Shown here: piece after piece, positions 23,021-64,000 of the stretch
How positions within the stretch are numbered: position 1 is the stretch's first letter
How the letters are laid out: each line of letters starts with the position of its first letter
DNA from: Squalus acanthias
Lineage: Eukaryota
Length of the DNA stretch: 64,000 nucleotides
Reading direction: 5' to 3'
Assembly (NCBI GenBank): GCA_030390025.1
Contig: JASTWF010000244.1
Span: 496,001 to 560,000 of the forward strand
Notes under the pieces: generated by a model
What the model was told of the DNA's origin: nothing
Seen by the model: the letters and a program-made list of their open reading frames with translations, nothing else
Database searches by the model: none
Made by a program: the position numbers and the translations under genes

Positions 23021-23100
23021 CTTTGAATTGGAAAGTACATCCTTTATTCACCTGGGATTATATTCCTGAAGATCTGCTGGGCAAAGTACAGGGATGATTT

Positions 23101-23126
23101 TTACTTTCACTTCACTGATTCCGCCC
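23101..23126 (-). promoter_or_regulatory. Putative proximal promoter: IRF-E/ISRE-like site plus GC box
   Basis: Minus-strand AAGTGAAAGT (23103-23112) is the IRF1/2 and PRDI-type consensus. GGGCGG at 23121-23126 lies ~80-105 bp upstream of the ATG. Confidence 0.6.
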
Positions 23127-26100
23127 AGGTATGTTTACGGAGTGACCATAACGAGGATATTACGCAACAAGCTGTGACAAAAAAATCACTGGAGTCTCTG
23201 TAAACTGCCATGTATTTTATTAATTTTAATGTTGAAAGCAAGAGAGTATTTCCGTTTGTTTTCTGCCGAAGCGATTGTTGAGCTGGTTGGTTTTTACAGA
23301 AGAATTTTTTTAAATAGGTCCCTCCCTCCCGTTAGATCTGTATCATGTTCTTCCCGGCCCATCCCTCCCACCCATCAGACCTGGATCTTGTTCTCCCCGG
23401 CCCCTCCCTCCCGTTAGACCTGGATCATGTTCCCCCCCCCCGGCCTCCTCCCATCAGATTTGGATCATGTTCTTCCCGGCCCCTCCCTCCGGTTAGACCT
23501 GGATCATGTTCTCCCAGCCCCTCCCTCCCATTAGAACAGGATCATGATTTCCCCATCCTCTCCCTCCGGTTAGAACTGGATCATGTTCTCCCCGGCCTCT
23601 ACCTCCCGTTAGACCTGGATCATGTTCTCCCGGACCCTCCCTCCCGTTAGATCGGGATCATGCTCTCCCGGACCCTCCCTCCCGTTACACCCGGATCATG
23701 TTCTCCCCGGCCCCTCCCATTAGACCTGGATCATGTTCTCCCTGGCCCCTCCCATTAGACCTGGATCATGTTCCCCCCGGCCCCTCCCGTTAGACCTGGA
23801 TCATGTTCTCCCCGGCCCCTCCCTCCCGTAAGACCTGGATCATGTTCTCCCGGCCCCTCCCTCCCGTTAGACCTGGATCATGTTCTCCCAGCCCCTCCCT
23901 CCCATTAGAACTGGATCATGTTCTCCCCATCCTCTCCCTCCGGTTAGACCTGGATCATGTTCTCCCCAGCCCCTCCCTCCTGTTAGATCTGGATCATGTT
24001 CTCCCGACCTCTCCCTCCTGTTAGACCTGGTTCATGTTCTCCCCCGCCCCTCCCTCCCATTAGATCTGGATCATGTTCTTCCCGGCCCCTCCCTCCGGTT
24101 AGACCTGGATCATGTTCTCCCCATCCTCTCCCTCCGGTTAGACCTGGATCATGTTCTCCCCAGCCCCTCCCTCCTGTTAGATCTGGATCATGTTCTCCCG
24201 ACCTCTCCCTCCTGTTAGACCTGGTTCATGTTCTCCCCCGCCCCTCCCTCCCATTAGATCTGGATCATGTTCCCCCTGGCCCCTCCCTCCCGTTAGATCT
24301 GGATCATGTTCTCCTGGCCCCTCCCTCCCGTTAGACCTGGATCATGTTCCCCACCGGCTCCTCCTTCCCATTAGATCTGGATCATGTTCTCCTGGTCCCT
24401 CCCTCCCGTTAGACCTGGAACATGTTCTCCCGGGCCCCTGCCTCCTGTTAGATCTGGATCATGTTCTCCCCGGCCCCTCCCTCCCATTAGACCTGGATCA
24501 TGTTCTCCCCGGCCCCTCCCTCCCATTAGACCTGGATCATGTTATCCCCGGCCCCTCCCATTAGACCTGGATCATGTTCTCCCCGGCCCCTCCCGTTAGA
24601 CCTACATCATGTTTCCCCTGGCCCCTCCCTCCCGTTAGACCTGGATCATGTTCCCCCCGGCCCCTCCCTCCTGTTAGACCTGGATCATGTTCCCCCCGGC
24701 CCCTCCCTCCTGTTAGACCTGGATCATGTTCCCCCGGCCCCTCCCATTAGACCTGGATCATGTTCTTCCCAGCCTCTCCCTCCCATAAGACCTGGATCAT
24801 GTTCCCCCCGGCCCCTCCCATTAGATCTGGATCATGTTCTTCCCGGCCCCTCCCTCTGGTTAGACCTGGATCATCTTCTCCCAGCCCCTCCCTCCCATTA
24901 GAACTGGATCATGTTCTCCCCATCCTCTCCCTCCGGTTAGACCTGGATCATGTTCTCCCCGGCCTCTACCTCCCGTTAGACCTGGATCATGTTCTCCCCA
25001 GCCCCTCCCTCCTGTTAGATCTGGATCATGTTCTCCCGACCTCTCCCTCCCGTTACACCTGGATCATGTTCCCCCCGGCCCCTCCCTCCCGTTAGATCTG
25101 GATCATGTACTCCCGGACTCTCCCTCCCGTTAGACCTGGAGCATGTTCTCCCCGGCCCCTCCCTCCTGTTACACCTGGAGCTTGTTCTCCCCGGCCCTTC
25201 CCTCCTGTTAGACCTGGATCATGTTCTCCCCGGCTCCTCCTTCCCATTAGATCTGGATCATGTTCTCCTGGCCCCTCCCTCCCGTTAGACCTGGAACATG
25301 TTCTCCCGGGCCCCTCCCTCCTGTTAGATCTGGATCATGTTCTCCCCGGCCCAACCCTCCCGTTAGACCTGGATCATGTTATCCCCGGCCCCTCCCATTA
25401 GACCTGGATCATGTTCTCCCCGGCCGCTCCCGTTAGACCTGGATCATGTTCTCCCCGGCCCCTCCCGTTAGACCTGGATCATGTCCCCCCCGGCCCCTCC
25501 TGTTAGATCTGGATCATGTTCTCCCCGGCCCCTCCCTCTCGTTAGATCTGGATCATGTTCCCCCCGGCCCCTCCCTCCTGGTAGATCTGCATCATGTGCC
25601 CCCCGGCCCCTCCCTCCCGTTAGACCTGGATCATGTAACCCCCCGGCCCCTCCCTCCTGTCAGACCTTGATCATGTTCCCCCCGGCCCTTCCCTCCTGTT
25701 AGACCTGGATCATGTTCCCCCGGCCCCTCCCGTTAGACCTGGATCATGTTCTTCCCGGCCCCTCCCTCCCGTTAGATCTGGATCATGTTCTCGCCGGCCC
25801 CTCCCTCCCGTTAGACCTGGATCATGTTCTCCCCGGCCCCTGCCTCCCGTTAGATCTGGATCATGTTCTCCCCATCCTCTCCCTCTGGTTAGACATGGAT
25901 CATGTTCTCCCCGGCCCCTCCCTCCCATTAGACCTGGATCATGTGCTCCCCGGCCCCTTCCATCCCGTTAGACCTGGATCATGTTCTCCCCGGCCCCTAC
26001 CTCCCATTAGATCTGGATCATGTTCATCCCGGCCCCTGCCTCCAGTTAGACCTGGATCATGTTCTCCCTGGCCTCTCCCTCCCGTTAGACCTGGATAATG

Positions 26101-29100
26101 TTCTCCCCGGCCTCCACCTCCCGTTGGATCTGCATCATGTTCTCCCCGGACCCTTCCTCCCGTTAGATCTGGATCATGTTCTCCCGACCTCTCCCTCCCA
26201 TTAGACCTGGATCATGTTCCCCCCCGGCCCCTCGCTTCCGTTAGACCTGGATCATGTTCTCCCTGGCCCCTCCCTCCCATTAGATCTGGATCATGTTCTC
26301 CCCGGCCTGTCCCTCCCGTTAGACCTGGATCATGTTCTCCCCGGCCCCTCCCTCCCATTAGACCTGGATCATGTTCTCCCCGGCCCCTCCCTCCCATTAG
26401 ACCTGGATCATGTTATCCCCGGCCCCTCCCATTAGACCTGGATCATGTTCTCCCCGGCCCCTCCCGTTAGACCTGGATCATGTTCTCCCCGGGCTCTACC
26501 TCCCGTTAGACCTGGATCATGTTCTCCCCGGCCCCTCCCTCCTGTTAGACCTGGATCATGTTCTCCCGGACCCTCCCTCCCGTTAGTTCTGGATCATGCT
26601 CTCCCGGACCCTCCCTCCCGTTACACCCGGACTTGTTCTCCCCGGCCCCTCCCATTAGACCTGGATCATGATCTCCCTGGCCCCTCCCATTAGACCTGGA
26701 TCATGTTCCCCCCGGCCCCTCCCGTTAGACCTGGATCATGTTCTCCCCGGCCCCTCCGTCCCGTAAGATGTGGATCATGTTCTCCCGGCCCCTCCCTCCC
26801 GTTAGACCTGGATCATGTTCCCCCCGGCCCCTCCCATTAGATCTGGATCATGTTCTTCCTGGCCCCTCCCTCCGGTTAGACCTGGATCATGTTCTCCCAG
26901 CCCCTCCCTCCCATTAGAACTGGATCATGTTATCCCCATCCTCTCCCTTCGGTTAGACCTGGATCATGTTCTCCCTGTCCTCTACCTCCCGTTAGACCTG
27001 GATCATGTTCTCCCCAGCCTCTCCCTCCTGTTAGATCTGGATCATGTTCTCCCCGGCCCCTCCCTCCCATTAGATCTGGATCATGTTCCCCCCAGCCCCT
27101 CCCTCCTGTTAGATCTGGATCATTTTCTCCCGGCCTTTCCCTCCCGTTAGACCTGGATCATTTTCTCCCCGGCCCCTCCCTCCTGTTACACCTGGATCTT
27201 GTTCTCCCCGGCCCCTTCCTCCCGTTAGATCTGGATCATGTTCTCCCCGGCTCCTCCTTCCCATTAGATCTGGATCATGTTCTCCTGGCCCCTCCCTCCC
27301 GTTAGACCTGGAACATGTTCTCCCGGGCCCCTCCCTCCTGTTAGATCTGGATCATGTTCTCCCCGGCCCCTCCCTCCCATTAGACCTGGATCATGTTCTC
27401 CCCGGCCCCTCCCTCCCATTAGACCTGGATCATGTTATCCCCGGCCCCTCCCATTAGACCTGGATCATGTTCTCCACGGCCCCTCCCGTTAGACCTGGAT
27501 CATGTTGTCCCCGGCCCCTCCCGTTAGACCTGTATCATGTCCCCCCCGGCCCCTCCAGTTAGATCTGGATCATGTTCTCCCCGGCCCCTCCCTCCCGTTA
27601 GATCTGGATCCTGTTCCCCCCGGATCGTCCCTCCCGTTAGACCTGGATCATGTTCCCCCCGGCCCCTCCCTCCTGTTAGACATGGATCATGTTCCCCCCG
27701 GCCCCTCCCTCCTGTTAGACCTGGATCATGTTCCCCCGGCCCCTCCCATTAGACCTGGATCATGTTCTTCCCGGTCCCTCCCTCCCGTTAGATCTGGATC
27801 ATGTTCTCGCCGGCCCCTCCCTCCCGTTATACCTGGATCATGTTCTAACTGGCCCCTCCCTCCCGTTAGATCTGGATCCTGTTCTCCCCATCCCCTCCCT
27901 CCGATTAGACATGGATCATGTTCTCCACGGCCCCTCCCTCTCATTAGACCTGGATCATGTTCTCCCCGGCCCCTTCCATCCCGTTAGACCTGGATCATGT
28001 TCTCCCCGGCCCCTACCTCCCATTAGATCTGGATCATGTTCTCCCCGGCCCCTGCCTCCGGTTAGACCTGGATCATGTTCTCCCTGGCCTCTCCCTCCAT
28101 TTAGACCTGGATAATGTTCTCCCCGGCCTCCACCTCCCGTTAGACCTGGATCATGTTCTCCCCGGCCCCTCCCTCCCGTTAGATCTGGATCATGTTCTCC
28201 CGACCTCTCCCTCCCATTAGACCTGGATCATGTTCCCCCCGGCCCCTCGCTCCCGTTAGACCTTGATCATGTTCTCCCTGGCCCCTCCCTCCCATTAGAT
28301 CTGGATCATGTTCTCCCCGGCCTCTCCCTCCCGTTAGACCTGGATCATGCTCTCCCCGGCCCCTCCCTCCCATTAGACCTGAATCATGTTCTCCCCGGCC
28401 CCTCCCTCCCATTAGACCTGGATCATGTTCTCCCGGACCCTCCCTCCCGTTACACCTGGATCATGTTATCCCCGGCCCCTCCCATTAGACCTGGATCATG
28501 TTCTCCCCGGCCCCTCCCGTTGAACCTGGATCATGTTCCCCCCGGCCCCTCCCTTCCATTAGAACTGGATCATGTTCTCCCTGGCCCCTCGCTCCCGTTA
28601 GACCTGGATCTTGTTCTCTCCGGCTCCTCCTTCCCATTAGACCTGGAGCATGTTCTCCCAGACCCTCCCTCCCGTTACACCCGGATCATGTACACCCCGG
28701 CCCCTCCCATTAGACCTGGATCATGTTCTCCCCGGCCCCTCCCGTTAGACCTGGATCATGTTACCCCCGGCCCCTCCCGTTAGACCTGGATCATGTTCTC
28801 CCCGGCCCCTCCCTCCCGTAAGATCTGGATCATGTTCTCCCGGCCCCTCCCTCCCGTTAGACCTGGATCATGTTCCCCCCAGCCCCTCCCATTAGATCTG
28901 GATCATGTTCTTCCTGGCCCCTCCCTCCGGTTAGACCTGGATCATGTTCTCCCAGCCCCTCCCTCCCATTAGAACTGGATCATGTTATCCCCATCCTCTC
29001 CCTCCGGTTAGACCTGGATCATGTTCTCCCTGGCCTCTACCTGCCGTTAGACCTGGATCATGTTCTCCCCAGCCCCTCCCTCCTGTTAGATCTGGATCAT

Positions 29101-32100
29101 GTTCTCCCGACCTCTCCCTCCCGTTAGACCTGGATCATGTTCTCCCCGGCCCCTCCCTCCCATTAGATCTGGATCATGTTCCCCCCGGCCCCTCCCTCCC
29201 GTTAGATCTGGATCATGTTCTCCCGGCACCTCCCTCCCGTTAGACCTGGATCATTTTCTCCCCGGCCCCTCCCTCCTGTTACACCTGAAAATTGTTCTCC
29301 CCGGCCCCTCCCTCCCGTTAGATCTGGATCATGTTCTCCCCGGCTCCTCCTTCCCATTAGATCTGGATCATGTTCTCCTGGCCCCTCCCTCCCGTTAGAC
29401 CTGGAACATGTTCTCCCGGGCCCCTCCCTCCTGTTAGATCTGGATCATGTTCTCCCCGGCCCCTCCCTCCCATTAGACCTAGATCATGTTCTCAACGGCC
29501 CCTCCCTCCCGTTAGACCTGGATCATGTTATCCCCGGCCCCTCCCATTAGACCTGGATCATGTTACCCCCGGCCCCTCCCGTTAGACCTGGATCATGTTC
29601 TCCCCGGCCCCTCCCTCCCGTAAGATCTGGATCATGTTCTCCCGGCCCCTCCCTCCCGTTAGACCTGGATCATGTTCCCCCCGGCCCCTCCCATTAGATC
29701 TGGATCATGTTCTTCCTGGCCCCTCCCTCCGGTTAGACCTGGATCATGTTCTCCCAGCCCCTCCCTCCCATTAGAACTGGATCATGTTATCCCCATCCTC
29801 TCCCTCCGGTTAGACCTGGATCATGTTCTCCCTGGCCTCTACCTGCCGTTAGACCTGGATCATGTTCTCCCCAGCCCCTCCCTCCTGTTAGATCTGGATC
29901 ATGTTCTCCCGACCTCTCCCTCCTGTTAGACCTGGATCATGTTCTCCCCGGCCCCTCCCTCCCATTAGATCTGGATCATGTTCCCCCCGGCCCCTCCCTC
30001 CCGTTAGATCTGGATCATGTTCTCCCGGCACCTCCCTCCCGTTAGACCTGGATCATTTTCTCCCCGGCCCCTCCCTCCTGTTACACCTGAAAATTGTTCT
30101 CCCCGGCCCCTCCCTCCCGTTAGATCTGGATCATGTTCTCCCCGGCTCCTCTTTCCCATTAGATCTGGATCATGTTCTCCTGGCCCCTCCCTCCCGTTAG
30201 ACCTGGAACATGTTCTCCCGGGCCCCTCCCTCCTGTTAGATCTGGATCATGTTCTCCCCGGCCCCTCCCTCCCATTAGACCTAGATCATGTTCTCAACGG
30301 CCCCTCCCTCCCATTAGACCTGGATCATGTTATCCCCGGCCCCTCCCATTAGACCTGGATCATGTTCTCCCCGGCCCCTCCCGTTAGACCTGGATCATGT
30401 TGTCCCCGGCCCCTCCCGTTAGGCCTGGATCATGTCCCCCCCGGCCCCTCCAGTTAGATCTGGATCATGTTCTCCCCGGCCCCTCCCTCCCGTTAGATCT
30501 GGATCATGTTCCCCCCGGCTCCTCCCTCCCGTTAGACCTGGATCATGTTCCCCCCGGCCCCTCCCTCCTGTTAGACCTGGATCATGTTCCCCCCGGACCC
30601 TCCCTCCCGTTAGACCTGGATCATGTTCTCCCCGGCCCCTTCCATCCCGTTAGACCTGGATCATGTTCTCCCCGGCCCCTACCTCCCATTAGATCTGGAT
30701 CATGTTCTCCCCGGCCCCTGCCTCCGGTTAGACCTGGATCATGTTCTCCCTGGCCTCTCCCTCCATTTAGACCTGGATAATGTTCTCCCCGGCCTCCACC
30801 TCCCGTTAGACCTGGATCATGTTCTCCCCGGCCCCTCCCTCCCGTTAGATCTGGATCATGTTCTCCCGACCTCTCCCTCCCATTAGACCTGGATCATGTT
30901 CCCCCCGGCCCCTCGCTCCCGTTAGACCTGGATCATGTTCTCCCTGGCCCCTCCCTCCCATTAGATCTGGATCATGTTCTCCCCGGCCTCTCCCTCCCGT
31001 TAGACCTGGATCATGCTCTCCCCGGCCCCTCCCTCCCATTAGACCTGGATCATGTTCTCCCGGACCCTCCCTCCCGTTACACCTGGATCATGTTATCCCC
31101 GGCCCCTCCCATTAGACCTGGATCATGTTCTCCCCGGCCCCTCCCGTTGAACCTGGATCATGTTCCCCCCGGCCCCTCCCTTCCATTAGAACTGGATCAT
31201 GTTCTCCCTGGCCCCTCGCTCCCGTTAGACCTGGATCTTGTTCTCCCCGGCTCCTCCTTCCCATTAGACCTGGATCATGTTCTCCCAGACCCTCCCTCCC
31301 GTTACACCCGGATCATGTACACCCCGGCCCCTCCCATTAGACCTGGATCATGTTCTCCCCAGCCCCTCCCGTTAGACCTGGATCATGTTACCCCCGGCCC
31401 CTCCCGTTAGACCTGGATCATGTTCTCCCCGGCCCCTCCCTCCCGTAAGATCTGGATCATGTTCTCCCGGCCCCTCCCTCCCGTTAGACCTGGATCATGT
31501 TCCCCCCGGCCCCTCCCATTAGATCTGGATCATGTTCTTCCTGGCCCCTCCCTCCGGTTAGACCTGGATCATGTTCTCCCAGCCCCTCCCTCCCATTAGA
31601 ACTGGATCATGTTATCCCCATCCTCTCCCTCCGGTTAGACCTGGATCATGTTCTCCCTGGCCTCTACCTGCCGTTAGACCTGGATCATGTTCTCCCCAGC
31701 CCCTCCCTCCTGTTAGATCTGGATCATGTTCTCCCGACCTCTCCCTCCCGTTAGACCTGGATCATGTTCTCCCCGGCCCCTCCCTCCCATTAGATCTGGA
31801 TCATGTTCCCCCCGGCCCCTCCCTCCCGTTAGATGTGGATCATGTTCTCCCGGCACCTCCCTCCCGTTAGACCTGGATCATTTTCTCCCCGGCCCCTCCC
31901 TCCTGTTACACCTGAAAATTGTTCTCCCCGGCCCCTCCCTCCCGTTAGATCTGGATCATGTTCTCCCCGGCTCCTCCTTCCCATTAGATCTGGATCATGT
32001 TCTCCTGGCCCCTCCCTCCCGTTAGACCTGGAACATGTTCTCCCGGGCCCCTCCCTCCTGTTAGATCTGGATCATGTTCTCCCCGGCCCCTCCCTCCCAT

Positions 32101-35100
32101 TAGACCTAGATCATGTTCTCAACGGCCCCTCCCTCCCGTTAGACCTGGATCATGTTATCCCCGGCCCCTCCCATTAGACCTGGATCATGTTCTCCCCGGC
32201 CCCTCCCGTTAGACCTGGATCATGTTGTCCCCGGCCCCTCCCGTTAGGCCTGGATCATGTCCCCCCCGGCCCCTCCAGTTAGATCTGGATCATGTTCTCC
32301 CCGGCCCCTCCCTCCCGTTAGATCTGGATCATGTTCCCCCCGGCTCCTCCCTCCCGTTAGACCTGGATCATGTTCCCCCCGGCCCCTCCCTCCTGTTAGA
32401 CCTGGATCATGTTCCCCCCGGACCCTCCCTCCCGTTAGACCTGGATCATGTTCTCCCCGGCCCCTTCCATCCAGTTAGACCTGGATCATGTTCTCCCCGG
32501 CCCCTACCTCCCATTAGATCTGGATCATGTTCTCCCCGGCCCCTGCCTCCGGTTAGACCTGGATCATGTTCTCCCAGCCCCTCCCTCCCATTAGAACTGG
32601 ATCATGTTATCCCCATCCTCTCCCTCCGGTTAGACCTGGATCATGTTCTCCCTGGCCTCTACCTCCCGTTAGACCTGGATCATGTTCTCCCCAGCCCCTC
32701 CCTCCTGTTAGATCTGGATCATGTTCTCCCGACCTCTCCCTCCCGTTAGACCTGGATCATGTTCTCCCTGGCCCCTCCCTCCCATTAGATCTGGATCATG
32801 TTCTCCCCGGCCTCTCCCTCCCGTTAGACCTGGATCATGTTCTCCCCGGCCCCTCCCTCCCATTAGACCTGGATCATGTTCTCCCCGGCCCCTCCCTCCC
32901 GTTAGACCTGGATCATGTTCTCCCGGACCCACCCTCCCGTTACACCTGGATCATGTTATCCCCGGCCCCTCCCATTAGACCTGGATCATGTTCTCCCCGG
33001 CCCCTCCCGTTAGACGTGGATCATGTTCCCCCCGGCCCCTCCCTTCAATGAGAACTGGATCATGTTCTCCCCGGCCCCTCCCGTTAGACGTGGATCATGT
33101 TCCCCCCGGCCCCTCCCTTCCATTAGAACTGGATCATGTTCTCCTGGCCCCTCCCTCCCGTTAGACCTGGATCATGTTCTACCAGACCCTCCCTCCCATT
33201 ACACCCGGATCATGTACTCCCCGGCCCCTCCCATTAGACCTGGATCATGTTCTCCCCGGCCCCTCCCGTTAGACCTGGATCATGTTCCCCCCGGCCCCTC
33301 CCGTTAGACCTGGATCATGTTCTCCCCGGCCCCTCCCTCCCGTTAGACCTGGATCATGGTCTCCCAGCCCCACCCTTCCGTTAGACCTGGATCATGTTTC
33401 CCCCAGCCCCTCCCATTAGATCTGGATCATGTTCTTCCCGGCTCCTCCCTCCGGTTAGACATGGATCATGTTCTCCTGGCCCCTCCCTCCCATTAGATCT
33501 GGATCATGTTCTCCCCATCCTCTCCCTCCGGTTAGACATGGATCATGTTCTCCCCGGCCCCTCCCTCCCGTTAGATCTGGATCATGTTATCCCGACCTCT
33601 CCCTCCCGTTAGATCTGGATCAGGTTCTCCCCGGCCCATCCGTCCCATTAGACCTGGATCATGTTCTCCCCGGCCCCTCCCTCCCGTTAGATCTGGATCA
33701 TGTTCTCCCGGACCCTCCCTCCTGTTAGACCTGGATCATGTTCCCCCCGGCCCCTCCCTCCTGTTAGACCTGGATATGTTCCCCCCGGACCCTCCCTCCC
33801 GTTAGACCTGGATCATGTTCTCCCCGGCCCCTTCCATCCCGTTAGACCTGGATCATGTTCTCCCCGGCCCCTACCTCCCATTAGATCTGGATCATGTTCT
33901 CCCCGGCCCCTGCCTCCGGTTAGACCTGGATCATGTTCTCCCTGGCCTCTCCCTCCATTTAGACCTGGATAATGTTCTCCCCGGCCTCCACCTCCCGTTA
34001 GACCTGGATCATGTTCTCCCCGGCCCCTCCCTCCCGTTAGATCTGGATCATGTTCTCCCGACCTCTCCCTCCCATTAGACCTGGATCATGTTCCCCCCGG
34101 CCCCTCGCTCCCGTTAGACCTGGATCATGTTCTCCCTGGCCCCTCCCTCCCATTAGATCTGGATCATGTTCTCCCCGGCCTCTCCCTCCCGTTAGACCTG
34201 GATCATGCTCTCCCCGGCCCCTCCCTCCCATTAGACCTGGATCATGTTCTCCCGGACCCTCCCTCCCGTTACACCTGGATCATGTTATCCCCGGCCCCTC
34301 CCATTAGACCTGGATCATGTTCTCCCCGGCCCCTCCCGTTGAACCTGGATCATGTTCCCCCCGGACCCTCCCTTCCATTAGAACTGGATCATGTTCTCCC
34401 TGGCCCCTCGCTCCCGTTAGACCTGGATCTTGTTCTCCCCGGCTCCTCCTTCCCATTAGACCTGGATCATGTTCTCCCAGACCCTCCCTCCCGTTACACC
34501 CGGATCATGTACACCCCGGCCCCTCCCATTAGACCTGGATCATGTTCTCCCCAGCCCCTCCCGTTAGACCTGGATCATGTTACCCCCGGCCCCTCCCGTT
34601 AGACCTGGATCATGTTCTCCCCGGCCCCTCCCTCCCGTAAGATCTGGATCATGTTCTCCCGGCCCCTCCCTCCCGTTAGACCTGGATCATGTTCCCCCCG
34701 GCCCCTCCCATTAGATCTGGTTCATGTTCTTCCTGGCCCCTCCCTCCGGTTAGACCTGGATCATGTTCTCCCAGCCCCTCCCTCCCATTAGAACTGGATC
34801 ATGTTATCCCCATCCTCTCCCTCCGGTTAGACCTGGATCATGTTCTCCCTGGCCTCTACCTGCCGTTAGACCTGGATCATGTTCTCCCCAGCCCCTCCCT
34901 CCTGTTAGATCTGGATCATGTTCTCCCGACCTCTCCCTCCCGTTAGACCTGGATCATGTTCTCCCCGGCCCCTCCCTCCCATTAGATCTGGATCATGTTC
35001 CCCCCCGGCCCCTCCCTCCCGTTAGATCTGGATCATGTTCTCCCGGCACCTCCCTCCCGTTAGACCTGGATCATTTTCTCCCCGGCCCCTCCCTCCTGTT

Positions 35101-38100
35101 ACACCTGAAAATTGTTCTCCCCGGCCCCTCCCTCCCGTTAGATCTGGATCATGTTCTCCCCGGCTCCTCCTTCCCATTAGATCTGGATCATGTTCTCCTG
35201 GCCCCTCCCTCCCGTTAGACCTGGAACATGTTCTCCCGGGCCCCTCCCTCCTGTTAGATCTGGATCATGTTCTCCCCGGCCCCTCCCTCCCATTAGACCT
35301 AGATCATGTTCTCAACGGCCCCTCCCTCCCGTTAGACCTGGATCATGTTATCCCCGGCCCCTCCCATTAGACCTGGATCATGTTCTCCCCGGCCCCTCCC
35401 GTTAGACCTGGATCATGTTGTCCCCGGCCCCTCCCGTTAGGCCTGGATCATGTCCCCCCCGGCCCCTCCAGTTAGATCTGGATCATGTTCTCCCCGGCCC
35501 CTCCCTCCCGTTAGATCTGGATCATGTTCCCCCCGGCTCCTCCCTCCCGTTAGACCTGGATCATGTTCCCCCCGGCCCCTCCCTCCTGTTAGACCTGGAT
35601 CATGTTCCCCCCGGACCCTCCCTCCCGTTAGACCTGGATCATGTTCTCCCCGGCCCCTTCCATCCAGTTAGACCTGGATCATGTTCTCCCCGGCCCCTAC
35701 CTCCCATTAGATCTGGATCATGTTCTCCCCGGCCCCTGCCTCCGGTTAGACCTGGATCATGTTCTCCCAGCCCCTCCCTCCCATTAGAACTGGATCATGT
35801 TATCCCCATCCTCTCCCTCCGGTTAGACCTGGATCATGTTCTCCCTGGCCTCTACCTCCCGTTAGACCTGGATCATGTTCTCCCCAGCCCCTCCCTCCTG
35901 TTAGATCTGGATCATGTTCTCCCGACCTCTCCCTCCCGTTAGACCTGGATCATGTTCTCCCTGGCCCCTCCCTCCCATTAGATCTGGATCATGTTCTCCC
36001 CGGCCTCTCCCTCCCGTTAGACCTGGATCATGTTCTCCCCGGCCCCTCCCTCCCATTAGACCTGGATCATGTTCTCCCCGGCCCCTCCCTCCCGTTAGAC
36101 CTGGATCATGTTCTCCCGGACCCACCCTCCCGTTACACCTGGATCATGTTATCCCCGGCCCCTCCCATTAGACCTGGATCATGTTCTCCCCGGCCCCTCC
36201 CGTTAGACGTGGATCATGTTCCCCCCGGCCCCTCCCTTCAATGAGAACTGGATCATGTTCTCCCCGGCCCCTCCCGTTAGACGTGGATCATGTTCCCCCC
36301 GGCCCCTCCCTTCCATTAGAACTGGATCATGTTCTCCTGGCCCCTCCCTCCCGTTAGACCTGGATCATGTTCTACCAGACCCTCCCTCCCATTACACCCG
36401 GATCATGTACTCCCCGGCCCCTCCCATTAGACCTGGATCATGTTCTCCCCGGCCCCTCCCGTTAGACCTGGATCATGTTCCCCCCGGCCCCTCCCGTTAG
36501 ACCTGGATCATGTTCTCCCCGGCCCCTCCCTCCCGTTAGACCTGGATCATGGTCTCCCAGCCCCACCCTTCCGTTAGACCTGGATCATGTTTCCCCCAGC
36601 CCTTCCCATTAGATCTGGATCATGTTCTTCCCGGCTCCTCCCTCCGGTTAGACATGGATCATGTTCTCCTGGCCCCTCCCTCCCATTAGATCTGGATCAT
36701 GTTCTCCCCATCCTCTCCCTCCGGTTAGACATGGATCATGTTCTCCCCGGCCCCTCCCTCCCGTTAGATCTGGATCATGTTATCCCGACCTCTCCCTCCC
36801 GTTAGATCTGGATCAGGTTCTCCCCGGCCCATCCGTCCCATTAGACCTGGATCATGTTCTCCCCGGCCCCTCCCTCCCGTTAGATCTGGATCATGTTCTC
36901 CCGGACCCTCCCTCCTGTTAGACCTGGATCTTGTTCTACCGGCCCCTTCCTCCCGTTAGATCTGAATCATGTTCTCCCCGGCCCCTCCCATTAGACCTGG
37001 ATCATGGTCTCCCCGGCCGCATCCATCCCGTTAGACCTGGATCATGTTCTCCCCAGCCCCTCCCTCCCATTAGATCTGGATCATGTTCTCCCCGGCCCCT
37101 CCCTCCCATTAGATCTGGATCATGTTCTCGCCGGCCCCTGCCTCCGGTTAGACCTGGATCATGTTCTCCCCGGCCTCTCCCTCCCGTTAGTCCTGGATAA
37201 TATTCTCCCCGGCCTCTACCTCCCGTGAGACCTGGATCATGTTCTTCCCGGCCCCTCCCTCCCGTTAGATCTGGATTATGTTCTCCCGACCTTTCCCTAC
37301 CGTTAGACCTGGATCATGTTCTCCCCGGCTCCTCCCTCCCGTTACATCTGGATCATGTTTCCCCGGCCCCTCCCTCCCGTTAGATCTCGATCATGTTCTC
37401 CCGGCCTTTCCCTCCCGTAAGACCTGGATCATGTTCTTTCCGGCCCCTCCCTCCCGTTAGACCTGGATCATGTTCTCCCCGGCCTCTCCCTCCCGTTAGA
37501 CCTGGATCATGTTCTCCCCGGCCACTCCCTCCCATTAGACCTGGATCATGTTCTCCCGGCCCATCCCTCCCATTAGAACTGGATCATGTTCTCCCGGACC
37601 CTCCCTCCCGTTACACCTGGATCATGTTATCCCCGGCCCCTCCCATTAGACCTGGATCATGTTCTCCCCGGCCCCTCCCGTTAGACCTGGATCATGTTCC
37701 CCCCGGCCCCTCCCGTTAGATCTGGATCATGTTCTCCCTGGCCCCTCCCTCCTGTTAGATCTAGATCATGTTCCCCCCGGCCCCTCCCTCCTGTTAGATC
37801 TGGATCATGTTCTCCCCATCCTCTCCCTTCGGTTAGACCTGGATCATGTTCTCCCCGGCCTCTACCTCCCGTTAGACCTGGATCATGTTCTCCCCGGCCC
37901 CTCCCTCCTGTTAGACCTGGATCATGTTCTCCCGGCACCTCCCTCCCGTTAGACCTGGATCATTTTCTCCCCGGCCCCTCCCTCCTGTTACACCTGAAAA
38001 TTGTTCTCCCCGGCCCCTCCCTCCCGTTAGATCTGGATCATGTTCTCCCCGGCTCCTCCTTCCCATTAGATCTGGATCATGTTCTCCTGGCCCCTCCCTC

Positions 38101-50100: not shown

Positions 50101-51023
50101 CATGTTCTCGCCGGCCCCTGCCTCCGGTTAGACCTGGATCATGTTCTCCCCGGCCTCTCCCTCCCGTTAGTCCTGGATAATATTCTCCCCGGCCTCTCCC
50201 TCCCGTGAGACCTGGATCATGTTCTCCCCGGCCCCTCCCTCCCGTTAGATCTGGATTATGTTCTCCCGACCTTTCCCTACCGTTAGACCTGGATCATGTT
50301 CTCCCCGGCTCCTCCCTCCCGTTAGATCTGGATCATGTTTCCCCGGCCCCTCCCTCCCGTTAGATCTCGATCATGTTCTCCCGGCCTTTCCCTCCCGTAA
50401 GACCTGCATCATGTTCTCCCCGGCCCCTCCCTCCCATTAGACCTGGATCATGTTCTCACCGGCCCTTCCCTCCCATTAGACCTGGATCATGTTCTTCCCG
50501 GCCCCTCCCTCCCGTTAGACCTGGATCATGTTCTCCCCGGCCTCTCCCTCCCGTTAGACCTGGATCATGTTCTCCCCTGCCCCTCCCTCCCATTAGACCT
50601 GGATCATGTTCTCCCGGCCCCTCCCTCCCATTAGATCTGGATCATGTTTCCCCCGGCCCCTCCCTCCCGTTAGATCTGGATCATTTTCTCCCGGCCTCTC
50701 CCTCCCGTTAGACCTGGATCATTTTCTCCCCGGCCCCTCCCTCCTGTTACACCTGGATCTTGTTCTCCCCGGCCCCTCCCTCCCGTTAGATCTGGATCAT
50801 GTTCTCCCCGGCTCCTCCTTCCCATTAGATCTGGATCATGTTCTCCTGGCCCCTCCCTCCTGTTAGATCTGGATCATGTTCTCCCCGGCCCCTCCCTCCC
50901 ATTAGACCTGGATCATGTTCTCCCCGGTCCCTCCCTCCCGTTAGACCTGGATCATGTTATCCCCGGCCCCTCCCATTAGACCTGGATCATGTTCTCCCCG
51001 GCCCCTCCCGTTAGACCTGGATC

Positions 51024-52192
51024 ATGTTGTCCCCGGCCCCTCCCGTTAGACCTGGATCATGTCCCCCCCCGGCCCCTCCAGTTAGATCTGGATCATGTTC
51101 CCCCCGGCCCCTCCCTTCCATTAGAACTGGATCATGTTCTCCCTGGCCCCTCGCTCCCGTTAGACCTGGATCTTGTTCTCCCCGGCTCCTCCTTCCCATT
51201 AGATCTGGATCAGGTTCTCCTGGCCCCTCCCTCCCGTTAGACCTGGATCATGATCTACCAGACCCTCCCTCCCATTACACCCGGATCATGTACTCCCCGG
51301 CCCCTCCCAGTAGACCTGGATCATGTTCTCCCAGGCCTCTCCCGTTAGACCTGGATCATGTTCTTCCCGGCCCCTCCCTCCCGTTAGACCTGGATCATGG
51401 TCTCCCGGCCCCACCCTTCCGTTAGACCTGGATCATGTTCTCCCCGGCCCCTCCCGTTAGACCTGGATCATGTTCCCCCCGGCCCCTCCCGTTAGACCTG
51501 GATCATGTTCTCCCTGGCCCCTCCCATTAGACCTGGATCAGATTCACCCCGGCCCCTCCCTCCCGTTAGACCTGGATCACGGTCTCCCGGCCCCTCCCTC
51601 CCGTTAGACCTGGATCACGGTCTCCCGGACCCTCCCTCCCGTTAGTCCTGGATCATGTCCTCCCGGCCCCTCCCTCCCGTTGGATCTGGATCATGTTCTC
51701 CCCATTCTCTCCCTCCGGTTAGACATGGATCATGTTCTCCCCGGCCCCTCCCTCCCATTAGACCTGGATCATGTTCTCCCGGACCCTCCCTCCCGTTACA
51801 CCTGGATCATGTTATCCCCGGCCCCTGCCATTAGACCTGGATCATGTTCTCCCTGGCCCCTCCTGTTGAACCTGGATCATGTTCCCCCCGGCCCCTCCCT
51901 TCCATTAGAACTGGATCATGTTCTCCCTGGCCCCTCGCTCCCGTTAGACCTGGATCTTGTTCTCCCCGGCTCCTCCTTCCCATTAGATCTGAATCATGTT
52001 CTCCTGGCCCCTCCCTCCCGTTAGACCTGGATCATGTTCTCCCAGACCCTCCCTCCCGTTACTCCCGGATCATGTACTCCCCGGTCCCTCCCATTAGACA
52101 TGGATCATGTTCTCCCCGGCCCCTCCCGTTAGACCTGGATCATGTTCCCCCCGGCCCCTGCCGTTAAACCTGGATCATGTTCTCCCCGGCCC
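51024..52192 (+). repeat. Left copy of the 1,169-bp direct duplication flanking the SINE
   Basis: Diagnostic variant monomers recur at a constant +1592 offset (ORFs 51024/52616 and 51844/53436). Confidence 0.9.
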
Positions 52193-52615
52193 GTGGCATA
52201 GTGGTTAGCACTGGTGCCTCACAGCGCCAGAGACCCGGGTTCGAATCTGACCTCGGGTGACTGTCTGTGTGGAGTTTGCACATTCTCCCCGTGTCTGCGT
52301 GGGTTTCCTCCGGGTGCTCCGGTTTCCTCCCACAGTCCAAAAATGTGTGGGTTAGGTTGATTTGGCTTTGATAAATTGACCCTTAGTGTTAGGGGGAATT
52401 AAATATGTGGGGTTATGGGGATAGGATGGGATATGTTAGGGGGAATTAAATACGTGGGGTTATGGGGGTAGGGTGGGATATGTGTACTGTGGGGATTAAA
52501 GCAGGGATAGGGTACTGGATTTGGATGATCAGCCATGATCGTATTGAATGGCGGAGCAGGCTCGACGGGCCGAATGGCCTACTCCTGCTCCTAGATTCTA
52601 TGTTTCTATGTTTCT
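52193..52615 (+). mobile_element. tRNA-derived V-domain SINE (HE1-like) with a CR1/HER1-derived 3' tail
   Basis: A box TGGCATAGTGG and B box GGTTCGAATC. V-domain CTGTGTGGAGTTTGCACATTCTCCCCGTGTCTGCGTGGGTTTCCTCCGGGTGCTCCGGTTTCCTCCCACAGTCCAAA. The 3' ~90 bp nearly match the CR1 tails at 1538-1620 and 14843-14938 and end in (TTCTATGT)3. Confidence 0.93.
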
Positions 52616-53784
52616 ATGTTGTCCCCGGCCCCTCCCGTTAGACCTGGATCATGTCCCCCCCCGGCCCCTCCAGTTAGATCTGGATCATGTTCCCCCCGGC
52701 CCCTCCCTTCCATTAGAACTGGATCATGTTCTCCCTGGCCCCTCGCTCCCGTTAGACCTGGATCTTGTTCTCCCCGGCTCCTCCTTCCCATTAGATCTGG
52801 ATCAGGTTCTCCTGGCCCCTCCCTCCCGTTAGACCTGGATCATGTTCTACCAGACCCTCCCTCCCATTACACCCGGATCATGTACTCCCCGGCCCCTCCC
52901 AGTAGACCTGGATCATGTTCTCCCAGGCCTCTCCCGTTAGACCTGGATCATGTTCTTCCCGGCCCCTCCCTCCCGTTAGACCTGGATCATGGTCTCCCGG
53001 CCCCACCCTTCCGTTAGACCTGGATCATGTTCTCCCCGGCCCCTCCCGTTAGACCTGGATCATGTTCCCCCCGGCCCCTCCCGTTAGACCTGGATCATGT
53101 TCTCCCTGGCCCCTCCCATTAGACCTGGATCAGATTCACCCCGGCCCCTCCCTCCCGTTAGACCTGGATCACGGTCTCCCGGCCCCTCCCTCCCGTTAGA
53201 CCTGGATCACGGTCTCCCGGACCCTCCCTCCCGTTAGTCCTGGATCATGTCCTCCCGGCCCCTCCCTCCCGTTAGATCTGGATCATGTTCTCCCCATTCT
53301 CTCCCTCCGGTTAGACATGGATCATGTTCTCCCCGGCCCCTCCCTCCCATTAGACCTGGATCATGTTCTCCCGGACCCTCCCTCCCGTTACACCTGGATC
53401 ATGTTATCCCCGGCCCCTGCCATTAGACCTGGATCATGTTCTCCCTGGCCCCTCCTGTTGAACCTGGATCATGTTCCCCCCGGCCCCTCCCTTCCATTAG
53501 AACTGGATCATGTTCTCCCTGGCCCCTCGCTCCCGTTAGACCTGGATCTTGTTCTCCCCGGCTCCTCCTTCCCATTAGATCTGAATCATGTTCTCCTGGC
53601 CCCTCCCTCCCGTTAGACCTGGATCATGTTCTCCCAGACCCTCCCTCCCGTTACTCCCGGATCATGTACTCCCCGGTCCCTCCCATTAGACATGGATCAT
53701 GTTCTCCCCGGCCCCTCCCGTTAGACCTGGATCATGTTCCCCCCGGCCCCTGCCGTTAAACCTGGATCATGTTCTCCCCGGCCC
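52616..53784 (+). repeat. Right copy of the 1,169-bp direct duplication flanking the SINE
   Basis: Starts ATGTTGTCCCCGG exactly as at 51024 and ends ...TGCCGTTAAACCTGGATCATGTTCTCCCCGGCCC exactly as at 52192. Confidence 0.9.
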
Positions 53785-59700: not shown

Positions 59701-62700
59701 GGATCTTGTTCTCCCTGGATCCTCCTTCCCATTAGACCTGGATCATGTTCTCCCCGGCCCCTCCCTTTCATTAGACCTGGATCATGTCCTCCCTGGCCCC
59801 TCCCTCCCGTTAGACCTGGATCATGTCCTCCCTGGCCCCTCCCGTTAGACCTGGATCATCTTCTCCCTGGCCCCTCCCGTTAGACCTGGATCATGTTCTC
59901 CCTGGCCCCTCCCTCCCGTTAGAACTGGATCATGTTCTCCCCGGCTCCTCCCTCCCGTTAGACCTGGATCATGTTCTCCCTAGCCCCTCCCTCCTGTCAG
60001 ACCTGCATCATGTTCTCCCCGGATCCTCCCTCCCGTTAGATCTGGATCATGTTCTCCCGGCCTCTCCCTCCCATTAAACCTGCATCATGTTCTCACCGGC
60101 CCTTCCCTCCCATTAGACCTGGATCATGTTCTTCCCGGCCCCTCCCTCCCGTTAGACCTGGATCTTGTTCTCTCCGGCCCCTCCCTCCCGTTAGACCTGG
60201 ATCTTGTTCTCCCCGGCTCCTCCTTCCCATTATATCTGGATCATGTTCTCCTGGCCCCTCCCTCCCATTAGATTTGGATCATGTTCTCCCCGGCCCCTCC
60301 CTCCCATTAGATCTGGATCCTGTTCTCCCTGGCCCCTCCCGTTAGACCTGGATCATGTTCTCCCTGGCCCCTCCCTCCCGTTAGACCTGGATCATGTTCT
60401 CCCCTGCCCCTCCCTCCCATTAGATGGATCTTCTTCTCCCCGGCCCCTCCCATTAGACCTGCATCATGTTCTCCCCGGCCCCTCCCGTTAGACCTGCATC
60501 ATGTTCCCCCCGGCCCCTCCCGTTAGATCTGGATCATGTTCTCCCTGGCCCCTCCCATTAGACCTGGATCATGTTCTCCCCCGCCACTCCCATTAGACCT
60601 GGATCATGGTCGCCCAGCCCCTCCCTTCCGTTAGACCAGGATCATGTTCTCCCGGCCCCTCCCTCCCGTTAGATCTGGATCATGTTCTCCACATCCTCTC
60701 CCTCCGGTTAGACATGGATCATGTTCTCCCCCGCCCCTCCCTCCCATGAGACCTGGATCATGTTCTCCCTGGCCCCTCCCTCCCTTTAGAACTGGATCAT
60801 GTTCTCCCCGGCCCCTCCCTCCCATTAGACCTGGATAATGTTCTCCCCGGCCTCTACCTCCCGTCAGACCTGGATCATGTTCTCCCCGGCCCCTCCCTCC
60901 CGTTAGACCTGGATCATGTTCTCCCCGGCCCCTCCCTCCCGTTAGATCTGAATCATGTTCTCCCTGGCCCCTCCCTCCCGTTAGACCTGGATCATGTTCT
61001 CCCGGACCCTCCCTCCTGTTACACCTGGATAATGTTATCCCCGGCCTCTCCCATTAGATCTGGATCATGTTCTCCCCGGCCCCTCCCTCCCATTAGATCT
61101 GGATCATGTTCTCACCGGCCCCTGCCTCCGGTTAGACCTGGATCATGCTCTCCCGGCCTTTCCCTCCCGTTACACCCGGATCATGTTATCCCCGGCCCCT
61201 CCATTAGACCTGGATCATGTTCTCCCCGGCCCCTCCCATTAGACATGGATCATGTTCTCCCCGGCCCCTCCCGTTAGACCTGGATCACGTTCTCCCTGGA
61301 CCCTCCCTCCCGTTAGACCTGGATCATGTTCTCCCTGGCCCCTCCATCCTGTTAGACCTGGATCATGTTCTCCCCAGCCCCTCCCTTCCATTAGACCTGG
61401 ATCATGTTCTCCCCGGCCCCTCCAGTTAGACCTGGATCATGTTCCCCCCGGCCCCTCCCGTTAGACCTGGATCATATTCTCCCTGGCCCCTCCCATTAGA
61501 CCTGGATCAGATTCACCCCAGCCCCTCCCTCCCGTTAGACCTGGATCACGGTCTCCCGGCCCCTCCCTCCCGTTTGACCTGGATCACGGTCTCCCGGACC
61601 CTCCCTCCCGTTAGTCCTGGATCATGTCCTCCCGGCCCCTCCCTCCCGTTAGATCTGGATCATGTTCTCCCCATTCTCTCCCTCCGGTTAGACATGGATC
61701 ATGTTCTCCCCGGTCCCTTCCATCCCGTTAGATCTGGATCATGTTCTCCCCGGCCCCTCCGTCCCATTAGACCTGGATCTTGTTCTCTCGGCCCCTCCCT
61801 CCCGTTAGACCTGGATCATGTTCTCACCGGCCCTTCCCTCCCGTTAGACCTGGATCATGTTCTTCCCGGCCCCTCCCTCCCGTTAGACCTGGATCTTGTT
61901 CTCCCCGGCCCCGCCCTCCAGTTAGACCTGGATTTTGTTCTCCCCGGATCCTCCTTCCCATTAGATCTGGATCATGTTCTCCAGGCCCCTCCCTCCCGTT
62001 AGACCTGGATCATGTCCTCCCTGGCCCTATCGTTAGACCTGGATCATGTTCTCCTGGCCCCTCCCTCCCGGTAGCCCTGGATCATGTTCTCCCAAGGCCC
62101 CTCCCTCCCGTTAGACCTGGATCATGTTCTCCCTGGCCCCTCCCTCCCGTTAGACCTGGATCATGTTCTCCCCGGCCCCTCCCTCCCGTTAGACCTGGAT
62201 CATGTCCTCCCTGGCCCCTCCCTCCCGTTAGACCTGGATCATGTTCTCACCGGCCCTTCCCTCCCGTTAGACCTGGATCATGTTCTTCCCGGCCCCTCCC
62301 TCCCGTTAGACCTGGATCTTGTTCTCCCCGGCCCCTCCCTTCCGTTAGACCTGGATCTTGTTCTCCCTGGATCCTCCTTCCCATTAGACCTGGATCATGT
62401 TCTCCCCGGCCCCTCCCTTTCATTAGACCTGGATCATGTCCTCCCTGGCCCCTCCCTCCCGTTAGACCTGGATCATGTCCTCCCTGGCCCCTCCCGTTAG
62501 ACCTGGATCATCTTCTCCCTGGCCCCTCCCGTTAGACCTGGATCATGTTCTCCCTGGCCCCTCCCTCCCGTTAGAACTGGATCATGTTCTCCCCGGCTCC
62601 TCCCTCCCGTTAGACCTGGATCATGTTCTCCCTAGCCCCTCCCTCCTGTCAGACCTGCATCATGTTCTCCCCGGCCCCTCCCTCCCGTTAGATCTGGATC

Positions 62701-64000
62701 ATGTTCTCCCGGCCTCTCCCTCCCATTAAACCTGCATCATGTTCTCACCGGCCCTTCCCTCCCATTAGACCTGGATCATGTTCTTCCCGGCCCCTCCCTC
62801 CCGTTAGACCTGGATCTTGTTCTCTCCGGCCCCTCCCTCCCGTTAGACCTGGATCTTGTTCTCCCCGGCTCCTCCTTCCCATTATATCTGGATCATGTTC
62901 TCCTGGCCCCTCCCTCCCATTAGATTTGGATCATGTTCTCCCCGGCCCCTCCCTCCCATTAGATCTGGATCCTGTTCTCCCTGGCCCCTCCCGTTAGACC
63001 TGGATCATGTTCTCCCTGGCCCCTCCCTCCCGTTAGACCTGGATCATGTTCTCCCCTGCCCCTCCCTCCCATTAGATGGATCTTCTTCTCCCCGGCCCCT
63101 CCCATTAGACCTGCATCATGTTCTCCCCGGCCCCTCCCGTTAGACCTGCATCATGTTCCCCCCGGCCCCTCCCGTTAGATCTGGATCATGTTCTCCCTGG
63201 CCCCTCCCATTAGACCTGGATCATGTTCTCCCCCGCCACTCCCATTAGACCTGGATCATGGTCGCCCGGCCCCTCCCTTCCGTTAGACCAGGATCATGTT
63301 TCCCCCGGCCCCTCCCACTAGATCTGGATCATGTTCTTCCCGGCCCCTCCCTCCGGTTAGACCTGGATCATGTTCTCCCGGCCCCTCCCTCCCGTTAGAT
63401 CTGGATCATGTTCTCCACATCCTCTCCCTCCGGTTAGACATGGATCATGTTCTCCCGGCCCCTCCCTCCCGTTAGTTCTGGATCATGTTCTCCACATCCT
63501 CTCCCTCCGGTTAGACATGGATCTTGTTTTCCCCGGCCCCTCCCTCCCATGAGACCTGGATCATGTTCTCCCCGGCCCCTCCCTCCCTTTAGAACTGGAT
63601 CATGTTCTCCCCGGCCCCTCCCTCCCATTAGACCTGGATAATGTTCTCCCCGGCCTCTACCTCCCGTCAGACCTGGATCATGTTCTCCCCGGCCCCTCCC
63701 TCCCGTTAGACCTGGATCATGTTCTCCCCGGCCCCTCCCTCCCGTTAGATCTGAATCATGTTCTCCCTGGCCCCTCCCTCCCGTTAGACCTGGATCATGT
63801 TCTCCCGGACCCTCCCTCCTGTTACACCTGGATAATGTTATCCCCGGCCTCTCCCATTAGATCTGGATCATGTTCTCCCCGGCCCCTCCCTCCCATTAGA
63901 TCTGGATCATGTTCTCACTGGCCCCTGCCTCCGGTTAGACCTGGATCATGCTCTCCCGGCCTTTCCCTCCCGTTACACCCGGATCATGTTATCCCCGGCC

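What the first reader, a model, noticed from the sequence alone, without database searches (positions are those of the whole stretch)
23317..64000. >40-kb polarised G-quadruplex/i-motif satellite
Seen: on the minus strand the full monomer reads GGGAGGGAGGGGCCGGGG, four G-runs with loops of 1, 1 and 2 nt. It alternates with a conserved, AT-richer spacer (AGAACATGATCCAGGTCTAAC). The 35-bp variant drops one GGGA unit and so loses one G-run. Known: G3+N1-7 x4 motifs with short loops form stable parallel G4s, and the C-rich complement can form i-motifs. Inference: hundreds of regularly spaced, same-strand G4 units could act as a replication barrier, a fragile/recombinogenic block or a chromatin platform. 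The 39/35 mix encodes an on/off pattern of G4 competence.
Basis: partly seen in the sequence, partly recalled or inferred. Interest (0 to 1): 0.72.

Follow-up and report, generated by a model that had tools for sequence, protein, structure and literature searches.

The report
Shark minisatellite beside immune gene promoter
This is a very long array of a 39-base repeat in a shark genome, starting 300 bases upstream of an immune-ligand gene; fewer than a third of its copies keep the four-stranded DNA motif, which looks like a decaying by-product rather than a preserved switch.

Summary
The G4 story is much weaker than claimed. Only 304 of 1,058 units keep four G3 runs, and 147 carry the exact motif. 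Of 754 non-canonical units, 529 are 37 bp or longer, so length (39 v 35) is not the switch. G-run bases mutate as fast as spacer bases (74 events at 12 sites v 49 at 8, P=1.0). Duplication boundaries are not enriched at intact G4 units (39 of 130, P=0.40). The array grew by nested block duplications with no fixed higher-order period and shows methyl-CpG decay.

The host is a shark, and the array starts 300 bp upstream of the leader-exon ATG of a B7-family (NCR3LG1-like) gene, an insulin-VNTR-like position. A SINE inside the array is flanked by a 1,165-bp duplication that ends exactly at both SINE ends, so the insertion apparently expanded the array.

Verdict: an undescribed, unusually long CEB1-like minisatellite, most likely near-neutral. 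A cis effect on the gene is open.

The parts
23320..64000 (-). 39-bp-unit minisatellite array, 1,059 units, open at the right window edge. G-rich strand is minus. 304 of 1,058 units keep a canonical four-run G4 motif.
30532..36917 (.). Largest recent tandem block duplication inside the array: 84 units (3,193 bp) twice, 4 substitutions plus small indels
52193..52619 (+). tRNA-type SINE (A box 52194, B box 52238). Its 3' end is shared with the window's LINE copies (80-89%) and ends in a short tandem tail. Probably V-SINE/HE1 type.
   Evidence: the family name is inferred from the table in PMC3747384, not tested against a repeat library
51028..52192 (+). Left copy of the 1,165-bp duplication (about 31 units) flanking the SINE; ends at the SINE 5' junction
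52620..53784 (+). Right copy of the same duplication, 2 mismatches; starts at the SINE 3' junction with a 4-nt microhomology to the SINE tail
22969..23020 (-). Leader (signal-peptide) coding exon of a B7-family/NCR3LG1-like gene. ATG at 23020, 300 bp from the array edge; phase-1 GT donor.
   Evidence: tblastn 15 of 18 residues identical to P0001 residues 1-18, E=8e-4; splice ends read
8478..8804 (-). Ig V-set exon of the same gene, AG acceptor and GT donor in phase with the leader exon
23021..23319 (-). Putative proximal promoter/5' UTR between array and ATG: IRF-site-like 10-mer at 23103-23112, GC box at 23121-23126, CpG o/e 0.68 v flank median 0.31
   Evidence: motif names are recalled and the 10-mer was picked after seeing it

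Best explanation
A GC-skewed 39-bp minisatellite whose founder unit happened to contain a short-loop G4 motif has expanded at this shark locus into an array of more than 40 kb. It grew by repeated out-of-register block duplication (unequal exchange or break-induced copying; blocks of about 11-80 units, nested, no fixed higher-order period). At least once it grew by a retrotransposon insertion that duplicated about 31 units. It is methylated in the germ line and decays by point mutation without regard to the G-runs, so 71% of units no longer have four intact G3 runs. The 35-mer is a GGGA slippage variant carried along by the same duplications. Intact units probably fold into parallel three-tetrad G4s when single-stranded, but this is a by-product, not a selected code. 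SHOWN: anatomy, duplication structure, equal mutation load in G-runs and spacer, CpG excess, SINE junctions. INFERRED: the recombination pathway, methylation, near-neutrality, folding.
For: (1) Approximate independent substitutions in 39-mers: 74 at 12 non-CpG G-run sites v 49 at 8 spacer C/G sites, 6.17 v 6.12 per site, binomial P=1.0. (2) The intact fraction among 39-mers (0.366) is close to a simulation at spacer rates (0.337) and to column shuffles (0.354+/-0.010). (3) At equal distance from the consensus, intact haplotypes are not more abundant than broken ones in any of six classes (P 0.18-0.85). (4) CpG sites have 41 forward events at 4 sites v 115 at 20 other C/G sites, P=0.002; 31 of 42 CpG events are transitions. 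(5) 51 duplicated blocks cover 829 of 1,059 units, and the best lag gives only 8% identical units. (6) Block boundaries: 39 of 130 intact v 28.7% background, P=0.40. (7) Units seen only once are 43-47% in the first 4 kb and 5-25% further in, as expected if the edge escapes homogenisation. (8) The SINE is flanked by a 1,165-bp duplication that coincides with both junctions.
Against: One haplotype of a truncated array gives no population data, so length polymorphism and selection on array size are invisible. The event counts come from a crude nearest-haplotype network and could miss weak selection. G4-induced breaks repaired by homologous recombination need not leave junctions at the G4, so the boundary test is weak. 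With relaxed CEB1-like rules (0-nt loop, or three G3 plus a G2), 683 of 1,058 units could fold, so functional G4 density may be higher than the canonical count. The position 300 bp from a start codon is not what a random neutral insertion would predict.
Confidence: 0.65

Rival explanations
1. Insulin-VNTR-like cis element: the array's proximal units, through G4/i-motif folding, zinc-finger binding or methylation spreading, set the expression of the adjacent B7-family gene, and array alleles tune it.
For: The edge lies 300 bp upstream of the leader ATG and about 200 bp from an IRF-site-like motif and GC box. The ILPR lies 363 bp upstream of the insulin start site and its variants alter reporter output (PMC12852952 passages). 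The promoter stretch keeps CpG o/e at 0.68-0.74.
Against: No sequence-level selection on G-runs. The promoter-proximal bin is no more intact (0.34) than the rest (0.23-0.37) and is the most diverged. The array looks methylated. The transcription start was not mapped.
Confidence: 0.15
2. One reading: a G4-driven replication barrier or fragile block, whose rearrangements are caused by the intact units and patterned by the 39/35 mix.
For: 304 same-strand short-loop motifs. CEB1, also 39 nt and sharing the GGGAGGGAGGG core, is G4-unstable in yeast (PMC5491262, PMC3486850 passages). The array is full of nested duplications.
Against: Boundaries are not enriched at intact units. Length does not determine G4 state. 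The youngest blocks already differ by 0.12-0.18%, mostly by single changes seen once, and the longest exact repeat is 1,574 bp, so turnover looks slow unless these are sequencing errors. A-loops are the least destabilising class.
Confidence: 0.1
3. The left edge of a genome-wide bulk satellite (pericentromeric or subtelomeric) that happens to abut a gene. Compatible with the neutral-decay part of the best explanation.
For: More than 40.6 kb and open-ended; a single orientation; CpG decay. Shark chromosomes carry satellites with units of this size, for example a 46-bp Y-linked unit of unrelated sequence (PMC11406177 passage).
Against: No fixed higher-order period. No telomeric repeat tract in the window (one 1-mismatch hit, chance mean 0.57). 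An apparently intact gene start lies 300 bp away. The homologue records come from contigs of 61-266 Mb, which says nothing on position.
Confidence: 0.08
4. Part of the block structure is an assembly artefact (haplotype copies laid in tandem).
For: Duplicate blocks differ by 0.1-0.5%, a level that haplotype differences or consensus errors could give.
Against: 365 distinct units among 1,043 in the first decomposition; nested blocks with graded divergence; no Ns. The two SINE junctions are only 427 bp apart, so one read would span them.
Confidence: 0.02

Closest known systems
Human CEB1 minisatellite (39-nt G4-forming subtelomeric VNTR)
   Same: Same unit length, strong strand bias and a shared GGGAGGGAGGG core with 1-nt A loops (sequence seen). 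Non-canonical G4 forms known from CEB1 would be open to many variant units here.
   Different: No homology beyond that core (convergent, by inspection). 59% GC v 77%. More than 1,059 units v the 10-42 motifs of the studied CEB1 alleles. G4-dependent instability is shown for CEB1 and not evident here.
Insulin-linked polymorphic region (ILPR / INS-VNTR)
   Same: A G4/i-motif-capable tandem repeat with variant units a few hundred bases upstream of a gene (363 bp from the start site; here 300 bp from the ATG).
   Different: ILPR units are 14 bp and need two units per quadruplex (unit sizes as seen), the array is far shorter (recalled), and its effect on expression is demonstrated. Here one unit holds the whole motif and no effect is shown.
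G4-rich intronic and intergenic minisatellites of bird dot chromosomes
   Same: Long GC-rich minisatellite tracts next to or inside genes, enriched in G4 motifs, G4s over-represented on the coding strand of introns (bioRxiv 10.1101/2025.10.17.683159 passages).
   Different: Different lineage and sequence; here a single array of more than 40 kb 5' of the gene.
LINE/SINE insertions with long target-site duplications
   Same: Long TSDs (over 20 bp) are a recognised minority class in cultured-cell assays (PMC4245944 passages); small tandem duplications at L1 insertion sites are also reported (PMC11702581 passages).
   Different: Here a natural, assembled insertion inside a satellite, with a 1,165-bp duplication that equals 12 nt plus a whole number of units, so it adds about 31 units to the array.
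HE1 V-SINE and HER1 LINE of sharks and rays
   Same: tRNA-type SINE whose 3' end is shared with a partner LINE (pair listed in PMC3747384 table; sharing seen here).
   Different: Not compared with the HE1 consensus; no repeat library was available.

Membership tests
G4-forming GC-rich minisatellite (CEB1 type) | Head-to-tail units of tens of bp, GC-rich, strongly strand-biased | tested here: met
G4-forming GC-rich minisatellite (CEB1 type) | Consensus unit carries a short-loop G4 motif | tested here: met
   Modal unit does
G4-forming GC-rich minisatellite (CEB1 type) | Most units retain four G3 runs | tested here: not met
   304 of 1,058 canonical; 683 of 1,058 under relaxed CEB1-like rules
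G4-forming GC-rich minisatellite (CEB1 type) | Folds into G4 in vitro | not testable with these tools
   ViennaRNA with G4 terms places a G4 in the 39-mer and none in the 35-mer; this is a prediction only
G4-forming GC-rich minisatellite (CEB1 type) | G4-dependent instability or hypervariability | tested here: inconclusive
   No boundary enrichment (39 of 130, P=0.40); youngest duplicates 0.12-0.18% diverged; one allele only
ILPR-type promoter VNTR | Lies just upstream of the transcription start | tested here: inconclusive
   300 bp from the ATG with promoter-like motifs between; start site not mapped, and a 5'-UTR intron location is not excluded
ILPR-type promoter VNTR | Allelic length or variant differences change expression | not testable with these tools
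   No population or expression data
Centromeric satellite with higher-order repeat | Fixed higher-order period repeated along the array | tested here: not met
   Best lags 84, 69, 104 and 106 units reach only 5-8% identical units
Centromeric satellite with higher-order repeat | CENP-A binding or location at primary constrictions | not testable with these tools
   Needs ChIP or FISH
Telomere-associated satellite | Adjacent telomeric repeats | tested here: inconclusive
   None in the window, but the array runs off the edge
V-SINE/HE1 | tRNA-derived head with A and B boxes | tested here: met
   (box patterns recalled); ARAGORN finds no intact tRNA
V-SINE/HE1 | 3' end shared with a partner LINE | tested here: met
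   80-89% to four LINE 3' ends in the window
V-SINE/HE1 | Conserved central V-domain | not tested
   No repeat library; resemblance is recalled only
B7 family / NCR3LG1-like gene | Leader plus IgV domain closest to B7 proteins | tested here: met
   Pfam V-set E=8.5e-9; 17 of 17 hits are shark proteins, 69-77% identical, 2 named NCR3LG1-like; best PDB hits CD276, NCR3LG1, VTCN1, PD-L1
B7 family / NCR3LG1-like gene | Orthology to B7-H6 (C1 domain, transmembrane region, synteny, tree) | not tested
   No later exon was found in the window by tblastn; no tree was built

The most novel reading that the evidence does not exclude
A G4/i-motif macro-array of more than 40 kb acts as a heritable, length- and variant-tunable control element for a shark B7-family immune ligand: an insulin-VNTR-like element of far greater size, whose copy number is changed partly by retrotransposon insertions that duplicate kilobase blocks of it.
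Probability: 0.12. Interest if true: 0.72.

Novelty: new member of a known kind. Interest (0 to 1): 0.34.

Why it matters
As a G4 satellite it is ordinary in kind, though the sequence seems undescribed and the array is long. It is a clean natural case in which about 1,000 copies of a short-loop G4 motif decay at the background rate, which argues against reading function from motif density. Two features are worth a specialist's time. First, the array abuts the start of a B7-family immune gene, so a cis effect can be tested directly. Second, the SINE with a 1,165-bp in-register duplication suggests that retrotransposition itself can add dozens of units to a satellite. If general, that is a little-considered route of array growth, and it is easy to screen for in long-read assemblies.

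Tried and rejected
Coding VNTR: rejected; every frame of the array has 317-737 stops and the longest open stretch is 279 codons. Structured RNA: no Rfam hit at gathering score in 64 kb and no tRNA gene. Spacer hairpin: negligible, -0.3 kcal/mol. Origin of the monomer from the local flank, LINE or SINE: only chance matches of 9-11 nt (E 0.31 or more). Fixed higher-order repeat: none. Selection for or against G4 units: none by site rate, by haplotype abundance or by boundary location. Four short ORFs next to the array matched no Pfam family (4 of the 7 proteins). [quoted passage not shown] SINE landing by chance on an older duplication junction: disfavoured, because the left junction unit and the right junction unit carry different diagnostic variants (the right one is seen in 10 of 1,059 units), which a short TSD in a chimeric unit would not give. 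Literature: two 16-mers of the monomer gave 0 papers; searches listed no description of this repeat. Supplementary files, repeat databases and subscription journals were not searched. No eukaryotic genome collection was available, so copy number in the genome, chromosomal position and presence in other sharks stayed unchecked.
Full report
OBSERVATION. Tandem Repeats Finder gives one array of period 39 from 23320 to the window end, at about 59% GC with a GC skew near -0.4. Anchoring on the spacer decomposes it into 1,059 units: 598 of 39 bp, 211 of 35, 204 of 38, 25 of 40, 20 of other lengths from 34 to 43, and one 474-bp unit that holds an insertion. None is inverted. Canonical G4 motifs number 318 on the minus strand of the array, against 170 on average (maximum 191) in 30 dinucleotide shuffles and 5 in the 23-kb flank. 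The array, its polarity and its G4-type consensus are real.

HOW MANY UNITS ARE G4-COMPETENT. The 474-bp unit was left out of these counts. The exact motif is in 147 of 1,058 units and four intact G3 runs are in 304 of 1,058: 302 of 828 units of 38 bp or more, 2 of 5 37-mers, and 0 of 225 units of 34-36 bp. Of the 754 non-canonical units, 529 are 37 bp or longer, so point changes rather than the 4-bp deletion account for most losses. Short units are not certainly 'off' either. Thirty-four have a G-sextet allowing a 0-nt loop and 17 have three G3 plus a G2, both forms that fold in CEB1 (PMC5491262, passages), and 191 of 225 could borrow a fourth run across a loop of 25 nt or less. By G4Hunter (window 25), 70% of units under 38 bp and 50% of longer units reach 1.5, and 1-3% reach 2. 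Intact units are irregularly spaced (median 116 bp, maximum 916, CV 0.82).

IS THE MOTIF MAINTAINED? In 598 39-mers, non-CpG G-run sites vary at 6.8% and spacer C/G sites at 7.7%; that spacer figure includes one very common variant site, without which it is about 4%. CpG sites vary at 22%. To reduce inflation by duplication I linked each distinct 39-mer to its nearest more common one and kept links of one or two changes (215 events). G-run sites had 74 events at 12 sites and spacer C/G sites 49 at 8 (P=1.0). CpG sites were in excess (P=0.002), and 31 of their 42 events were transitions. At equal distance from the consensus, intact haplotypes are no more abundant than broken ones. The motif is therefore neither protected nor purged at the resolution of this test, and the CpG excess implies germ-line methylation (inference).

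HOW IT GREW. Fifty-one duplicated blocks (10th-90th percentile 11-31 units, longest 82) cover 829 of 1,059 units. There is no fixed higher-order period. The youngest blocks of 1.1-3.2 kb differ by 0.12-0.18% and older ones by 0.4-0.6%, mostly by single changes seen once. Block boundaries are not enriched at intact G4 units (39 of 130 v 28.7%, P=0.40), though this is a weak test. If those differences are real mutations and the epaulette shark rate of 7e-10 per base per generation applies (PMC10587355, abstract), 0.13% corresponds to about 0.9 million generations (my arithmetic). Sequencing errors or a higher local rate would shorten this, so it is closer to an upper bound. Slow turnover fits the data; CEB1-like hypermutability is not evident.

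HOST AND NEIGHBOURHOOD. The flank holds reverse-transcriptase LINE copies and an Ig V-set exon at 8478-8804 on the minus strand. All 17 hits for that exon are shark proteins at 69-77% identity, two named NCR3LG1-like, and the best solved-structure matches are B7-family proteins. The host is thus a cartilaginous fish, most likely a shark; I did not try to identify it further. Local tblastn placed the gene's leader exon at 23020-22969 (15 of 18 residues identical to P0001), with splice sites in phase with the V exon. The array therefore starts 300 bp upstream of the ATG, with its G-rich strand on the gene's sense strand. Between them lie an IRF-site-like 10-mer (23103-23112, the only copy in the window; chosen after inspection and named from recall), a GC box, and CpG o/e of 0.68 against a median of 0.31 in 58 flank windows (two transposon-region windows score higher). 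This suggests the promoter lies there, but the start site is unmapped. The arrangement resembles the insulin ILPR, 363 bp upstream of its start site (PMC12852952, passages). The resemblance is positional only: the proximal units are the most diverged and are no more intact than the rest.

THE SINE. A 427-bp element at 52193-52619 has A and B boxes and a 3' end 80-89% like four LINE ends in the window, as for the shark HE1/HER1 pair (PMC3747384, table passage). The 1,165 bp to its left (51028-52192) are repeated to its right (52620-53784) with 2 mismatches, and both ends of the duplication fall at the SINE's ends. The right junction carries a rare unit variant found at the start of the left copy, with a 4-nt microhomology to the SINE tail. 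The simplest reading is an insertion-coupled duplication. Either the second strand was cut 1.16 kb away, or a normal stagger of about 12 nt was repaired out of register; the duplication equals 12 nt plus a whole number of units, which weakly favours the latter. I put insertion-coupling at about 0.75; the main alternative is a later unequal exchange resolved at the SINE edge. Long TSDs are a known minority class in cell assays (PMC4245944, passages; PMC11702581, passages). Searches listed no natural case inside a satellite, but I read only listings for most hits.

MECHANISM AND VERDICT. The best-supported reading (0.65) is a near-neutral, methylated minisatellite, expanded by out-of-register block copying and once by retrotransposition, with G4 potential as a decaying by-product. 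Rivals are a cis element for the B7-family gene (0.15), a G4-driven fragile block (0.10), the edge of a bulk satellite (0.08) and assembly artefact (0.02). Intact units probably fold in vitro: loops of 3 nt or less destabilise minisatellites in yeast, although A-loops are the weakest class (PMC6614823, passages). The i-motif is less convincing, since G in loops lowers stability and 1-nt loops are unfavourable (recalled).

NOVELTY. The kind is well known: CEB1 (PMC5491262 and PMC3486850, passages), ILPR, and bird dot-chromosome minisatellites (bioRxiv 10.1101/2025.10.17.683159, passages). This sequence was not found in print by two 16-mer full-text terms (0 papers) or by searches; the one shark satellite unit I saw quoted (PMC11406177, passage) is unrelated. 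Supplements and repeat databases were not searched and may hold it. No eukaryotic genome could be scanned, so genome-wide copy number and conservation remain open. I rate it a new member of a known kind, interest 0.34, most of it owed to the promoter position and the SINE-linked duplication rather than to the G4 code.

Noticed in passing
window 51028-53784: SINE flanked by a 1,165-bp direct duplication ending exactly at both SINE ends (2 mismatches): a giant target-site duplication or other insertion-coupled expansion of about 31 units.
   Followed up: yes
window 22969-23020 and 8478-8804 (minus): First two coding exons of a B7-family/NCR3LG1-like gene. Several shark homologues are 700-1,700 aa long and mostly annotated 'uncharacterized', much longer than the two named NCR3LG1-like records (322 and 379 aa).
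   Followed up: partly
window about 22507-22650 (minus): Degenerate second copy of the leader exon and part of its upstream region, 477 bp into intron 1 (79% over 62 nt; alignment). It reads as a leader-like peptide but lacks a GT donor at the matching place.
   Followed up: partly
window 23309-23316 (minus): A TATA-like AT run lies 3 bp inside the array edge on the gene's sense strand; could be chance in AT-rich flank.
   Followed up: no
window 13333-14935 (plus): 5'-truncated CR1-type LINE with an uninterrupted 500-codon reverse-transcriptase frame and a short tandem tail like the SINE's; apparently young and a candidate partner family for the SINE.
   Followed up: partly
window 52387-52483: The SINE has an internal 47-bp tandem duplication.
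   Followed up: no
window 23320-64000: Unit-length change is one-sided: 225 units of 34-36 bp against one 43-bp unit at the edge. The second commonest spacer variant among long units (180 copies) is absent from the eight commonest short-unit spacers, so the 35-mers may descend from few founders.
   Followed up: partly
window about 4270-5140, 12900-13400, 15900-17100: Related dispersed elements with inverted-looking ends and raised CpG content, probably non-autonomous DNA transposons (by eye; CpG).
   Followed up: no
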